DNA from: Myxococcota bacterium
GTDB taxonomy: Bacteria > Myxococcota_A > SURF-8 > G963677705
DNA: 64,000 nucleotides
Assembly: GCA_963677705.1 (NCBI GenBank)
Contig: OY782497.1
Span: forward strand, 276,285 to 340,284
Direction of reading: 5' to 3'
Under the pieces are notes generated by a model. The model was not told the DNA's origin. It ran no database searches and was given only the letters and a program-made list of their open reading frames with translations. Shown here piece after piece: positions 35,542 to 36,846 of this stretch (position 1 is its first letter; each line of letters begins with the position of its first letter). The position numbers and the translations under genes were made by a program.

Positions 35542-36846
35542 TCATTCGTCCATATCATCTTCGCTGACATCACCGGTCAGACCGTCGGTAACACCATAGG
35601 TACACTGGCAGGGGTCGTCGGTGTTGCTCATATCACAACCGGCGCTTATATAAAATTCTCCGATGGTTTCCCAGCAGTATTCGTTGCAGTAAAGGTAGTT
35701 GTAGGACGTTCCGTCTTCTGAGCAGGTGGCTAAGCTGAGGCCATCATCGGTGCAGAACATCGCGTCACCCGGCGTGCATTCAAACATTTCGCCGTCTATC
35801 ATGCTGTACTGGCATTGGCAGGCATTCAGTTCGCTTTCCGTGTCGCAGCCTGTTGAATAGTAGTCGGCCCCGAAGTTATCCCGGCAGAATTCCTGGCAAT
35901 CGGTGGCTTCCCAGTAGTAATTGTCGCAGGTCATCAGGTTGCCTTCATCATTGCAGGAAAGCTCGCCGGGTTCGCATTCCACCATTTCACCGTCTACCAT
36001 GCCATATTCGCATTGGCAGGGATTGCCGCTGTTATCGACATCGCAACCGTAGCTGACATAGTCCGTGCCGTACTGTTCACTGCAAAGGGTTTCACAGCTT
36101 TGGTAGTCGTAGTAGCCTTCGTCGGCACAAACACCCAAAGTCCCGGTGTCATTGCAGATCATGTCTCCGGGCATACACTCGGTAATGCCGCCGTCAATGG
36201 CATCATACTCACATTGGCAGGGGTTGTCCGGGTTGTTTTCCACGCAGCCGTAACTGACGTAGTCCATGCCGAACTCTTCGTTGCAGTACGTCTCGCAGTT
36301 CACGTAATCGTAGTAATAGTCCTCGGTGCAGAGCGCCAGGGTTTGTTCATCGGAGCAATAGAAATAGCCTGGATCGCATTCCTGCATGACGCCGTCCGTT
36401 GCACCGTATTCACACTGGCAGAGGTTTTCCGGATTTTCCTCATTGCAGGAGTCAAAGGGGATGTAGTCCACTCCGAAGAGGTCTTCGCAGTACTCGGTGC
36501 ATTCCATGTCCTGCCATCGGCCATCCTCGTTACAGAGTTTGACCGTGTCCTCATCCCCGCAGGCAAAGGCTCCTTCCTCTTCGCAGGAGGTGTTGGTGGT
36601 ATCGTCGTCGTCATCCTGTTGCTGTTGGTCATCGTTGAAGTTGATGTCTTCATCGTTGCAGGCTGCGACGCCGAAGGCCAGCCCGGCGGCAAGAAGCAAT
36701 GTCGCCGCTTTTTTCACCAGCCCTTGGGGAAAAAGCCAGCTCAGCCAGCAGGCGTGGGCTACCGTGCATTCCCCGCTTTCCGAGGCATAGCTCGGTTCCT
36801 TATAGCGTTTCAGAGGCGTAACGCGAAATCCTTTGCTTGGGTTCAT
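35542..36846 (-). CDS. Cys/Asp/Glu-rich tandem-repeat lipoprotein (about five 66-aa repeats)
   Basis: Repeats each begin CQCEY and contain EC-x-PG and C-E-x-x-C spacing. The lipoprotein signal KKAATLLLAAGLAFGVAAC lies 43 aa inside the maximal ORF. A GTG at 36715-36717 with an AAGGG RBS is the more likely start. Confidence 0.65.
   Translation of the reverse strand: MNPSKGFRVTPLKRYKEPSYASESGECTVAHACWLSWLFPQGLVKKAATLLLAAGLAFGVAACNDEDINFNDDQQQQDDDDDTTNTSCEEEGAFACGDEDTVKLCNEDGRWQDMECTEYCEDLFGVDYIPFDSCNEENPENLCQCEYGATDGVMQECDPGYFYCSDEQTLALCTEDYYYDYVNCETYCNEEFGMDYVSYGCVENNPDNPCQCEYDAIDGGITECMPGDMICNDTGTLGVCADEGYYDYQSCETLCSEQYGTDYVSYGCDVDNSGNPCQCEYGMVDGEMVECEPGELSCNDEGNLMTCDNYYWEATDCQEFCRDNFGADYYSTGCDTESELNACQCQYSMIDGEMFECTPGDAMFCTDDGLSLATCSEDGTSYNYLYCNEYCWETIGEFYISAGCDMSNTDDPCQCTYGVTDGLTGDVSEDDMDE

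What the first reader, a model, noticed from the sequence alone, without database searches (positions are those of the whole stretch)
35542..36846. CQCEY-repeat lipoprotein with a probable GTG start placing the lipoprotein signal at the N-terminus
Five ~66-aa repeats follow CQCEY-x5-DG-x3-EC-x-PG-x3-C-x-D-x-G-x-L-x2-C ... CE-x-x-C-x-E-x-FG-x-DY-x-S-x-GC. The only ATG-initiated ORF adds 43 non-signal residues. A GTG at 36715-36717 with an AAGGG RBS would give M-KKAATLLLAAGLAFGVAAC, a textbook lipoprotein signal. A poly-Q/poly-D linker (DDQQQQDDDDD) follows the lipobox. Repeat homogeneity of about 50-60% identity suggests recent internal duplication.
Basis: seen in the sequence. Interest (0 to 1): 0.55.

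Follow-up and report, generated by a model that had tools for sequence, protein, structure and literature searches.

The report
Radical-SAM-partnered cysteine-rich repeat lipoprotein
This is a real gene for a very acidic, cysteine-rich exported protein, and its long conserved N-terminal tail (not a mis-called start codon) marks it as the partner of the radical SAM enzyme encoded just upstream, in an undescribed two-gene system also seen with other cargo domains in other phyla.

Summary
The ORF 35542-36846 (-), its five 8-Cys "CQC[EQT]Y" domains, the lipobox (LAFGVAAC, Cys63), the DDQQQQDDDDD linker and the in-frame GTG are all present. The proposed GTG start is not supported. The 43 "extra" residues are conserved in more than 70 homologues (F-x-V-x-P-V-x-x-Y-x-x-A-x-Y-P-S). 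The ATG has an AAGGAG Shine-Dalgarno 7 nt upstream, and the GTG has AAGGG only 3 nt upstream.

The repeats are old, not recently duplicated: 32-55% identity within the protein, and each repeat has a better match in other proteins.

An RRE-less radical SAM/SPASM gene (54-64% identical orthologues) lies directly upstream in 12 of 16 distinct loci, all uncultured Myxococcota. Related rSAMs (51% and 43% identical) are followed by proteins that lack the CQCEY domain. These keep only the N-terminal module: motif, linker, hydrophobic stretch and one invariant Cys (hhalign 94.5%, E 8e-8).

I therefore read the N-module as the element the enzyme recognises and/or modifies, with the CQCEY array as interchangeable exported cargo. 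The chemistry is unknown. No Pfam or NCBIfam family, PDB fold or paper covers the partner proteins. It is a new variant of the rSAM/SPASM maturase-substrate theme.

The parts
35542..36846 (-). CDS of the CQCEY-repeat protein (434 aa, ATG start, stop included)
   Evidence: Public call is the same 434 aa. 58 homologues.
36854..36859 (-). Shine-Dalgarno AAGGAG, 7 nt before the ATG
   Evidence: SD-like GGAG/GGGAG is also present before the equivalent ATG in L001, L003, L004, L010, L014, L016, L017, L019, L021 and L024.
36784..36828 (-). Universal N-motif, residues 7-21 (FRVTPLKRYKEPSYA; family consensus F-x-V-x-P-V-x-x-Y-x-G-A-R-Y-P-S). Predicted cytoplasmic.
   Evidence: F7 and Y20 invariant; P11 and Y15 at least 90%. 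Shared with an unrelated partner family.
36718..36783 (-). Linker of the N-extension, residues 22-43. This is the subgroup-specific SESGE...ACWLSWLFPQG segment, with a predicted helix at 28-38.
36715..36717 (-). Read here as an internal codon.
   Evidence: AAGGG only 3 nt upstream; upstream codons conserved at protein level
36658..36717 (-). Hydrophobic segment plus lipobox, residues 44-63 (VKKAATLLLAAGLAFGVAAC). Cys63 is invariant in the family.
   Evidence: (helix 41-61)
36586..36657 (-). Acidic low-complexity linker, residues 64-87 (NDEDINFNDDQQQQDDDDDTTNTS)
   Evidence: pLDDT <50
36412..36585 (-). 8-Cys domain 1 (residues 88-145)
36211..36378 (-). 8-Cys domain 2 (residues 157-212)
36010..36177 (-). 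8-Cys domain 3 (residues 224-279)
35812..35976 (-). 8-Cys domain 4 (residues 291-345)
35602..35778 (-). 8-Cys domain 5 (residues 357-415)
36946..38070 (-). Partner radical SAM/SPASM enzyme (374 aa from MKVILHLTTGCNLRCKYCY). It has no RRE domain. The mechanical ORF extends to 38166.
   Evidence: Orthologues directly upstream of CQ genes in 12 of 16 loci.
38244..38273 (-). Promoter-like site (TTGCCT-18-TACAAT) upstream of the rSAM gene, after the rluB terminator hairpin at 38386-38415
   Evidence: consensus match only
35436..35459 (-). Perfect 10-bp hairpin (AAAGGGCACC-ACAA-GGTGCCCTTT) followed by TTTCAATTT. Likely terminator of the two-gene unit.

Best explanation
The gene starts at the ATG (36846). 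It encodes a protein with an N-in/C-out topology, built from four parts:
- a positively charged cytoplasmic N-terminal extension carrying a conserved 15-residue motif;
- a hydrophobic segment ending in a lipobox Cys;
- an acidic linker;
- five disulfide-rich, extremely acidic 8-Cys domains that fold outside the cytoplasm.

It forms a self-contained two-gene operon with the RRE-less radical SAM/SPASM enzyme immediately upstream.

The N-terminal module (motif, linker, hydrophobic stretch, invariant Cys) is the only element common to all partner proteins of this enzyme clade. The CQCEY array is not. The N-module is therefore the part the enzyme most likely recognises and/or modifies, in the cytoplasm, before or during membrane insertion. 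The CQCEY domains are interchangeable exported cargo, probably a cation-binding surface or periplasmic array.

Shown: the start codon, the architecture, the conserved gene pairing, and the N-module being shared across unrelated cargo. Inferred: that the rSAM acts on the N-module, the topology, and lipidation. The reaction is unknown. Candidates are a thioether involving the single invariant Cys, or a cross-link on the invariant Tyr residues.
For: Start and extension:
- The conserved N-motif is seen.
- The N-module HMM retrieves 47 proteins at E<=1e-3 from 1.84 billion, all but one matched from residues 1-8.
- SD sites are, and the public 434-aa call is.

Gene pairing:
- rSAM orthologues (54-64% id, full length) lie directly upstream on the same strand in 12 of 16 distinct loci with otherwise unrelated neighbours.
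- The gaps in the loci are -14 to +58 nt, apart from L005, where a 55-aa ORF lies between; in the window the gap is 99 nt without a terminator, with the unit's own promoter-like site and terminator hairpin.

The N-module is the common element:
- L019: an rSAM paralogue (51% id) is followed by P0205, which has the same N-module and then a Cys-free acidic tail.
- L021 and L024: rSAMs (43% id) overlap the start of 145-184-aa proteins of an unrelated family. That family has 97 members, and 61 of 77 full-length members have exactly one Cys.
- N-modules of the two families align at hhalign probability 94.5%, E 8e-8, over 49 columns from the motif to the Cys.
- 13 family-2/rSAM pairs share contig lengths, and one pair has adjacent locus tags C3F09_07400/07405.

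Enzyme:
- It has the CX3CX2C motif and a full SPASM Cys set, both invariant.
- The best curated hit is PapB-type at 220 bits, below the 340 cutoff.
- The best PDB hit is CteB, aligned from CteB residue 100, so it lacks the RRE.

Cargo and topology:
- The mature part has 95 D+E against 3 K+R in 371 aa and 40 Cys.
- Domain pLDDT is 94-97.
- The lipobox pattern fits 72 of 79 members.
Against: - No experiment or structure shows enzyme-partner contact.
- The enzyme's closest characterised relatives make Cys thioethers. The only universal Cys is the lipobox Cys, which must be free for Lgt if the protein is lipidated, so 'lipoprotein' and 'thioether at Cys63' conflict.
- Four CQ loci have no rSAM within 3-5 kb (L006, L009, L013, L018).
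- Two members of the rSAM clade (P0124, P0127) show no recognisable partner in the DNA available.
- Cys63 lies outside the 15-35 window of the classical lipoprotein rule.
- The 20-residue uncharged stretch could equally be an uncleaved signal anchor.
Confidence: 0.6

Rival explanations
1. First reader's model. Translation starts at GTG 36717, giving a textbook lipoprotein signal at the N-terminus. The upstream 43 codons are untranslated leader, and the rSAM is merely a neighbour.
For: With the GTG start, the Cys falls at position 20 and the n-region is M-KK, a canonical lipoprotein signal. AAGGG lies just upstream.
Against: - The upstream codons are conserved as protein in more than 70 homologues at 25-60% identity.
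- The dominant subfamily has no start codon or basic n-region at the equivalent place (HHPLTLLL...).
- The AAGGG spacer is only 3 nt, whereas the ATG has AAGGAG with a 7-nt spacer.
- SD-like sequences precede the N-motif ATG in 13 other loci.
Confidence: 0.03
2. RiPP/QhpC-like model. The N-motif is only a leader that recruits the rSAM, which installs Cys-to-Asp/Glu thioethers inside the CQCEY repeats (for example C-Q-C-E, C-x2-D, GCD) in the cytoplasm before Sec export.
For: - The enzyme's nearest families (PapB, QhpD, CteB, CXXX-repeat, nif11) form Cys thioethers, often on repeated Cys motifs.
- PapB links Cys to Asp/Glu with 0-6 residue spacing (PMC9413430).
- QhpD does this inside a protein subunit (PMC10114670).
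- The P-C-Q-C-E-Y-D-I-I-D-G junction is the best-conserved cargo motif.
Against: - Partners of closely related rSAMs have no Cys-rich domain at all: P0205 and P0189 are Cys-free after the lipobox, and family 2 has a single Cys.
- There are 8 Cys per domain, all invariant, in a confidently folded domain, which fits four disulfides.
- The EYDIIDG part is lost from the last domain in many homologues, as expected for an interdomain packing motif.
- A hydrophobic signal-anchor favours co-translational export, away from a cytoplasmic enzyme.
Confidence: 0.12
3. The N-extension is an export or targeting device unrelated to the rSAM, like the extended signal peptide region of autotransporters. In this reading the rSAM adjacency reflects co-regulation or another substrate.
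For: - Conserved N-terminal extensions of signal peptides exist in other systems (ESPR; from general knowledge).
- Four CQ loci lack an adjacent rSAM yet keep the motif.
Against: - The same N-module appears on three unrelated cargo types precisely downstream of rSAMs of one clade. The starts are often overlapping or within 30 nt.
- There is no third conserved gene in the neighbourhoods.
- There is no Pfam ESPR hit.
Confidence: 0.1
4. Anchoring variant, which can coexist with the best explanation. The hydrophobic stretch is an uncleaved signal anchor and Cys63 is not diacylglycerol-modified. The protein would then be a type II membrane protein whose cytoplasmic tail is permanently displayed to the rSAM.
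For: - The uncharged stretch is 13-24 residues, median 20, which is transmembrane length.
- AF2 predicts a continuous helix at 41-61.
- The Cys sits at position 39-88, outside the classical window.
- Family 2 has Glu/Asp at -2 of the Cys, which is atypical for a lipobox.
Against: - The Cys is invariant exactly at the end of the hydrophobic stretch.
- It has small residues at -1 and L/V/I at -3 or -2 in 72 of 79 members. This is hard to explain without Lgt/LspA processing or another Cys-directed reaction.
Confidence: 0.25

Closest known systems
PapB/PapA (freyrasin) ranthipeptide system, NCBIfam NF047865
   Same: It is the best-scoring curated family for the rSAM (220 bits, full-length alignment over model positions 5-328 of 330). 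Both are rSAM plus SPASM with three cluster motifs. Both enzymes are encoded next to their substrate, and the substrate is rich in Cys, Asp and Glu.
   Different: The score is below the 340-bit cutoff. The partner is a 434-aa exported protein rather than a short peptide. There is no CX3D repeat logic common to all partners. The enzyme has no RRE, whereas PapB recognition is described as leader-RRE based (PMC9413430).
CteB/SCIFF thioether synthase (PDB 5WGG)
   Same: It is the closest solved structure (E 3e-34). The rSAM core and SPASM Cys motifs align.
   Different: The alignment starts at CteB residue 100, so the N-terminal RRE domain is absent. The window enzyme has an extra invariant Cys (C314, in C-G-C) that is not present in CteB. 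The substrate is unrelated.
QhpD/QhpC (quinohemoprotein amine dehydrogenase gamma-subunit maturation)
   Same: An rSAM/SPASM enzyme modifies a protein destined for the periplasm, rather than a natural-product peptide, using an N-terminal leader (PMC10114670). TIGR03906 hits at 159 bits.
   Different: The score is far below the cutoff (453). There are no qhp genes nearby. The partner has a hydrophobic lipobox segment, and QhpC-type Cys-Asp/Glu sites are not shared by all partners.
Anaerobic sulfatase-maturating enzyme (anSME) and sulfatases
   Same: It is an RRE-less rSAM/SPASM of about 370 aa that modifies an exported protein in the cytoplasm before translocation (PMC10114670). It is the second-best PDB hit (4K37).
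   Different: The score is only 100 bits against a cutoff of 349. The partner has no C/S-x-P/A-x-R motif and no sulfatase domain.
Bacterial lipoprotein signal peptides (Lgt/LspA substrates) and extended signal peptide regions (ESPR)
   Same: The protein has a basic residue pair, a hydrophobic stretch and L-x-[GA]-C with an invariant Cys. It also has a conserved extension N-terminal to the signal, which is conceptually like ESPR.
   Different: The Cys lies at residue 63 (39-88 in the family), outside the classical 15-35 window. The extension carries its own conserved motif, tied to an rSAM gene. There is no Pfam ESPR match.
TIGRFAMs 'rSAM/lipoprotein system' (TIGR04133/TIGR04134; recalled from memory, not verified here)
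   Same: The concept is the same: a radical SAM/SPASM enzyme paired with an adjacent putative lipoprotein.
   Different: The window protein and the other partners hit no NCBIfam model at E<=1 and E<=0.01 respectively. The rSAM's top 25 NCBIfam hits do not include such a model. As I recall, that system is from Bacteroidota with small lipoproteins.

Membership tests
Bacterial lipoprotein (classical lipobox rule, PROSITE PS00013/PS51257 as recalled) | Sequence pattern {DERK}(6)-[LIVMFWSTAG](2)-[LIVMFYSTAGCQ]-[AGS]-C | tested here: met
   LAAGLAFGVAAC fits. 72 of 79 N-motif family members fit.
Bacterial lipoprotein (classical lipobox rule, PROSITE PS00013/PS51257 as recalled) | Cys between residues 15 and 35, with K/R in the first 7 residues | tested here: not met
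   With the supported ATG start the Cys is residue 63 (family range 39-88). K5 is present.
Bacterial lipoprotein (classical lipobox rule, PROSITE PS00013/PS51257 as recalled) | Diacylglyceryl modification of the Cys and LspA cleavage | not testable with these tools
   Needs lipid labelling, globomycin treatment or MS.
PapB-family ranthipeptide maturase (NF047865) | Whole-protein score at or above the curated cutoff (340 bits) | tested here: not met
   220 bits. Relatives score 215 and 243 bits.
PapB-family ranthipeptide maturase (NF047865) | rSAM CX3CX2C motif plus the SPASM 7-Cys motif | tested here: met
   C11/C15/C18 and C241, C259, C299, C302, C308, C312 and C331 are invariant in 12 orthologues.
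PapB-family ranthipeptide maturase (NF047865) | Short precursor peptide with repeated CX3D/E motifs, cross-linked Cys-S to Asp C-beta or Glu C-gamma | tested here: inconclusive
   The partner is a 434-aa protein rich in C, D and E. Other partners of the clade lack Cys-rich regions. The chemistry is not testable here.
RRE-dependent rSAM/SPASM RiPP maturases (CteB, AlbA, SuiB type) | N-terminal RiPP recognition element (wHTH) domain of about 80-100 aa | tested here: not met
   The enzyme starts 10 residues before the CX3CX2C motif. The alignment to CteB begins at CteB residue 100.
Anaerobic sulfatase maturase (TIGR03942) | Score at or above 349 bits, and a substrate with C/S-x-P/A-x-R in a sulfatase | tested here: not met
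   100 bits. The motif is absent from the partner, and there is no sulfatase domain.
QhpD (TIGR03906) | Score at or above 453 bits, and a qhpABC context | tested here: not met
   159 bits. The neighbours are scpAB, rluB and Cys-rich lipoprotein genes.
New family proposed here: rSAM-partnered N-module proteins | N-terminal Phi-x-[VI]-x-x-[VI]-x-x-Y-x-x-A-[RKHQ]-Y-P motif within the first ~25 residues | tested here: met
   FRVTPLKRYKEPSYA at residues 7-21. The family alignment is, and the cross-family hhalign is.
New family proposed here: rSAM-partnered N-module proteins | Hydrophobic stretch ending in an invariant Cys, 34-67 residues after the motif's first residue | tested here: met
   Cys63.
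New family proposed here: rSAM-partnered N-module proteins | Gene immediately downstream of an RRE-less rSAM/SPASM of the same clade | tested here: met
   99-nt gap in the window. Present in 12 of 16 CQ loci and in L019, L021 and L024.

The most novel reading that the evidence does not exclude
The radical SAM/SPASM enzyme chemically modifies the signal-proximal N-module of its partner. It might cross-link the single invariant 'lipobox' Cys, or the invariant Tyr residues of the cytoplasmic motif. This would create an rSAM-dependent step that gates, replaces or diversifies lipoprotein-type anchoring and sorting. The module would be portable and attached to unrelated cargo domains in Myxococcota, Zixibacteria/GN15 and other uncultured lineages. 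That would be a post-translational modification of a signal or anchor peptide rather than of a mature protein or a RiPP core.
Probability: 0.2. Interest if true: 0.85.

Novelty: new variant of a known kind. Interest (0 to 1): 0.6.

Why it matters
rSAM/SPASM enzymes are known to mature small peptides (RiPPs) and a few proteins (sulfatases, QhpC).

Here, an RRE-less clade is consistently paired with exported, lipobox-bearing proteins. The only feature these proteins share is a conserved cytoplasmic N-terminal extension plus one Cys.

If the enzyme acts on that module, this would be a new link between radical SAM chemistry and protein anchoring or export. It would be present in several poorly studied phyla, and it can be tested directly with two genes and a 66-residue peptide.

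There is also a practical point for annotation. Standard lipoprotein predictors will miss these proteins, or 'repair' them by moving the start codon, because the Cys lies about 60 residues in. The public start of the rSAM gene itself cuts off its cluster motif.

Tried and rejected
- Pfam and NCBIfam on the CQ protein, on the Cys-free variants and on family 2 gave no family.
- Foldseek of the AF2 model against the PDB gave nothing at E<1e-3. The best hit was 3e-3 with TM 0.11, to a Cys-rich Entamoeba lectin. The domain fold is therefore unassigned.
- The convergent 770-aa Cys-rich lipoprotein neighbour is not homologous to the CQ protein (BLASTP E 2.2).
- The full-length family alignment was too variable for the search for related loci. 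A 36-aa junction alignment worked.
- Four literature searches found no description of this pairing. Two rSAM-SPASM overview papers do not mention lipoproteins.
- A Tat signal was rejected. There is no conserved twin-Arg next to the hydrophobic stretch; the KR/RR pair sits about 25 residues upstream within the motif.
- An anSME-type target was rejected because there is no C/S-x-P/A-x-R motif.
- I first misread L018 as lacking the N-motif. Re-translation showed it is present (MNPFTIKPQKAYTSPRYP).
- Rfam found only sub-threshold whalefall-1 matches in the 3' intergenic hairpins.
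Full report
**1. The observation**

ORF 35542..36846 on the minus strand encodes 434 aa from an ATG. It has 43 Cys: two in the first 33 residues, Cys63 at the end of VKKAATLLLAAGLAFGVAAC, and 40 in five domains of eight Cys each. The domains are residues 88-145, 157-212, 224-279, 291-345 and 357-415, and each ends in C-Q-C-[E/Q/T]-Y. The DDQQQQDDDDD linker and the in-frame GTG (codon 44, 36717-36715) are present.

In the 8-Cys register there are exactly five.

The mature part is extremely acidic, with 95 D+E against 3 K+R in 371 residues. AF2 with the family alignment models each domain at pLDDT 94-97. 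Each domain is a beta-hairpin, a strand, a helix and two short strands. Foldseek finds no PDB fold at E<1e-3. Pfam and NCBIfam give nothing.

**2. The start codon**

A search of 5.8 billion proteins gave 58 homologues, all 'hypothetical' with no Pfam domain, the best at 43% identity.

- The consensus is M-x4-F-x-V-x-P-V-x-x-Y-x-G-A-R-Y-P-S.
- F7 and Y20 are invariant; P11 and Y15 are at least 90% conserved.
- A variable 10-30-residue linker follows, then a 13-24-residue uncharged stretch, then an invariant Cys.

A profile of this N-module alone retrieves 47 proteins at E<=1e-3 from 1.84 billion representatives. All but one spurious hit match from residues 1-8.

The ATG is preceded by AAGGAG with a 7-nt spacer. 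The GTG has AAGGG with a 3-nt spacer. SD-like sequences precede the equivalent ATG in 13 other loci. The public gene call for this contig (ENA ERZ21831104, ctg97512l) is also the 434-aa form. The GTG start is therefore rejected.

The lipobox itself is real as a sequence feature. 72 of 79 family members fit the classical pattern, but with the Cys at residue 39-88.

**3. The repeats are old**

Pairwise identity among the five query domains is 32-55% (mean 43%). Each domain has a closer match in another protein (54-60%) than within its own protein (44-55%). Across 257 domains from 75 proteins, within-protein identity (41.8%) equals between-protein identity (40.1%). Copy number varies from 1 to 6.

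The most conserved cargo element is the interdomain junction Y-S-x-G-C-D-A-x-A-x-D-P-C-Q-C-E-Y-D-I-I-D-G-x3-E-C-x-P-G-D. The EYDIIDG part is often missing after the last domain, as expected for an interdomain packing or cation-binding motif.

**4. The neighbour**

The upstream gene (36946..38070 when started at MKVILHLTTGCNLRCKYCY, as in all orthologues) is a radical SAM/SPASM enzyme.

- It has the CX3CX2C motif plus the full SPASM Cys set, all invariant.
- The best curated match is the PapB ranthipeptide maturase family at 220 bits, below the 340 cutoff. Next come nif11, QhpD, CcpM, CXXX-repeat and SCIFF maturases. anSME scores 100 bits, and cyclophane formers score about 60-75 bits.
- The best solved structure is CteB (E 3e-34), aligned from CteB residue 100. 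The window enzyme therefore has no RRE.

I examined sixteen distinct CQ loci: the window, six found through protein look-ups, and nine further distinct loci from one species-representative genome scan. All come from uncultured Myxococcota or 'Deltaproteobacteria' MAGs. In 12 of these, a full-length orthologue (54-64% identity) lies directly upstream on the same strand, usually 10-30 nt away, while the other neighbours differ. Two loci have two tandem CQ genes behind one rSAM.

In the window, the upstream rluB gene ends in its own hairpin terminator. A promoter-like site precedes the rSAM. No terminator separates the two genes, and a perfect 10-bp hairpin plus a T-rich tail follows the CQ gene. 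This is a self-contained two-gene unit.

**5. What the enzyme and its partners really share**

Going out from the rSAM side changed the picture.

- In the genome of L002, a second rSAM (51% identical) is followed by P0205. This protein has the same N-motif (FNVEPVRCYKGARY), the same WL..FPK segment, a hydrophobic stretch and TQGC. It then has a Cys-free D/G/Y-rich acidic tail. P0189 is similar.
- rSAMs at 43% identity (L021, L024) overlap the start of 145-184-aa proteins beginning MLRI[RK]QVxxYx[VI]A[KR]YPR, followed by ...AALLLLLESCDG...TGPPP...TENEAR.
- This second family has 97 members, including Zixibacteria and GN15 records. It has no Pfam or NCBIfam match, and 61 of 77 full-length members have exactly one Cys.
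- Thirteen of its members share contig lengths with rSAMs of the 40-45% tier, and one pair has adjacent locus tags.
- Profile-profile comparison of the two families' N-modules gives 94.5% probability, E 8e-8, over 49 columns running from the motif to the Cys.

The element that travels with this rSAM clade is therefore the N-module, not the CQCEY domain.

**6. Interpretation**

Positive charges in the tail and the acidic, 40-Cys C-terminal part indicate an N-in/C-out topology (inference). In that topology only the N-extension remains accessible to a cytoplasmic, oxygen-sensitive enzyme once the hydrophobic segment has engaged the membrane.

I therefore propose that the rSAM recognises and probably modifies the N-module, and that the CQCEY array is exported cargo. 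Its function is unknown; its composition suggests cation binding.

The reaction cannot be deduced. The enzyme's relatives form Cys thioethers (PapB: PMC9413430; QhpD: PMC10114670). The only universal Cys is the lipobox Cys, and using it would conflict with lipidation. The two invariant Tyr residues are alternative targets.

The RiPP/QhpC-like idea, in which the CQCEY cysteines are cross-linked before export, is weakened by the Cys-free and single-Cys partners and by the even, invariant 8-Cys pattern. It is not excluded for this subfamily.

Caveats:
- Four CQ loci lack an rSAM within 3-5 kb (L006, L009, L013, L018).
- Two members of the rSAM clade show no partner in the short DNA available.
- No physical evidence links enzyme and partner.
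- One planned metagenome scan and an enzyme-peptide AF2 run could not be done.

**7. Comparison and novelty**

The system works like an rSAM/SPASM maturase with its cognate substrate. It most resembles the protein-directed cases (anSME with sulfatases, QhpD with QhpC). It fails the membership tests for PapB, QhpD, anSME and RRE-dependent maturases. The partners belong to no curated family. Four full-text searches and two rSAM-SPASM overviews gave no description of such a pairing.

I recall a TIGRFAMs 'rSAM/lipoprotein system' (TIGR04133/04134) as a conceptual precedent. I could not verify it here, and nothing in NCBIfam matched the partners.

**8. Verdict**

The GTG-start and recent-duplication interpretations are wrong. 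I class it as a new variant of a known kind, with moderately high interest (0.6). The more radical reading, rSAM chemistry on a signal or anchor module, is not excluded (probability about 0.2).

Noticed in passing
window 36946-38166 (-): The start of the rSAM gene is ambiguous in annotation. The mechanical ORF starts at 38166, and all orthologues start at the ATG at 38070 (MKVILHLTTGCNLRCKYCY). The public protein (P0059, 347 aa) starts 27 codons further in, which removes the CX3CX2C cluster motif and is probably a mis-called start.
   Followed up: yes
window 35300-35541: The convergent intergenic region holds four perfect hairpins: 35335-35358, 35364-35384, 35436-35459 and a GGAUGCC/GCAUCC stem. 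The RNA fold z-score is -5.1. There are two sub-threshold Rfam 'whalefall-1' matches (24.8 and 18 bits; gathering score 37) on opposite strands. These are probably bidirectional terminators, but the density is unusual.
   Followed up: partly
window 32987-35299 (+): There is a 770-aa Cys-rich lipoprotein with a normal short signal (MIRRATLLAVSLCILLLFGC), convergent with the CQ gene. It is not homologous to the CQ protein (BLASTP E 2.2) and has no family. Other loci (L005, L008, L010, L011) also have an unrelated Cys-rich lipoprotein gene a few kb downstream of the cassette.
   Followed up: partly
window 39587-41731 (-): The ScpB homologue is 714 aa, but the ScpB domain covers only residues 252-409. 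The long N- and C-terminal extensions are extremely acidic and low-complexity.
   Followed up: no
window 38386-38415 (-) and 38244-38273 (-): A hairpin terminator (GAAGGCCCGG...CCGGGCCTTC plus TGTTT) lies right after rluB, and a promoter-like TTGCCT-18-TACAAT lies before the rSAM gene. These separate the cassette from the scpAB-rluB genes.
   Followed up: partly
L005:4191-5759 and L008:4377-7000: Two tandem CQ-family genes follow a single rSAM gene. In L005 a 55-aa ORF (3777-3944) also lies between the rSAM and the first CQ gene.
   Followed up: no
L021:6157-6711, L024:5163-5600 (family 2, P0210-P0306): This is a second partner family of about 180 aa with conserved LLESCDG, TGPPP, TENEAR and DGYNDSLRVGYEY motifs. 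It is found in Zixibacteria/GN15-type records and its function is unknown. In L024 two S26 signal-peptidase genes lie next to the cassette.
   Followed up: partly
L009:1054-2430 (+): An unrelated radical SAM ORF (AmmeMemoRadiSam-like, ...GCNLACPWCQN) lies upstream of a CQ gene that lacks the PapB-like rSAM. I judged this to be coincidental.
   Followed up: no
window 36735-36749 (-): A terminator-like hairpin plus T-run was flagged inside the N-extension coding region (GCTGGCTGAGCTGGC TTTTT). It encodes the conserved WLSWLF segment, so I regard it as a by-product of the coding sequence.
   Followed up: partly
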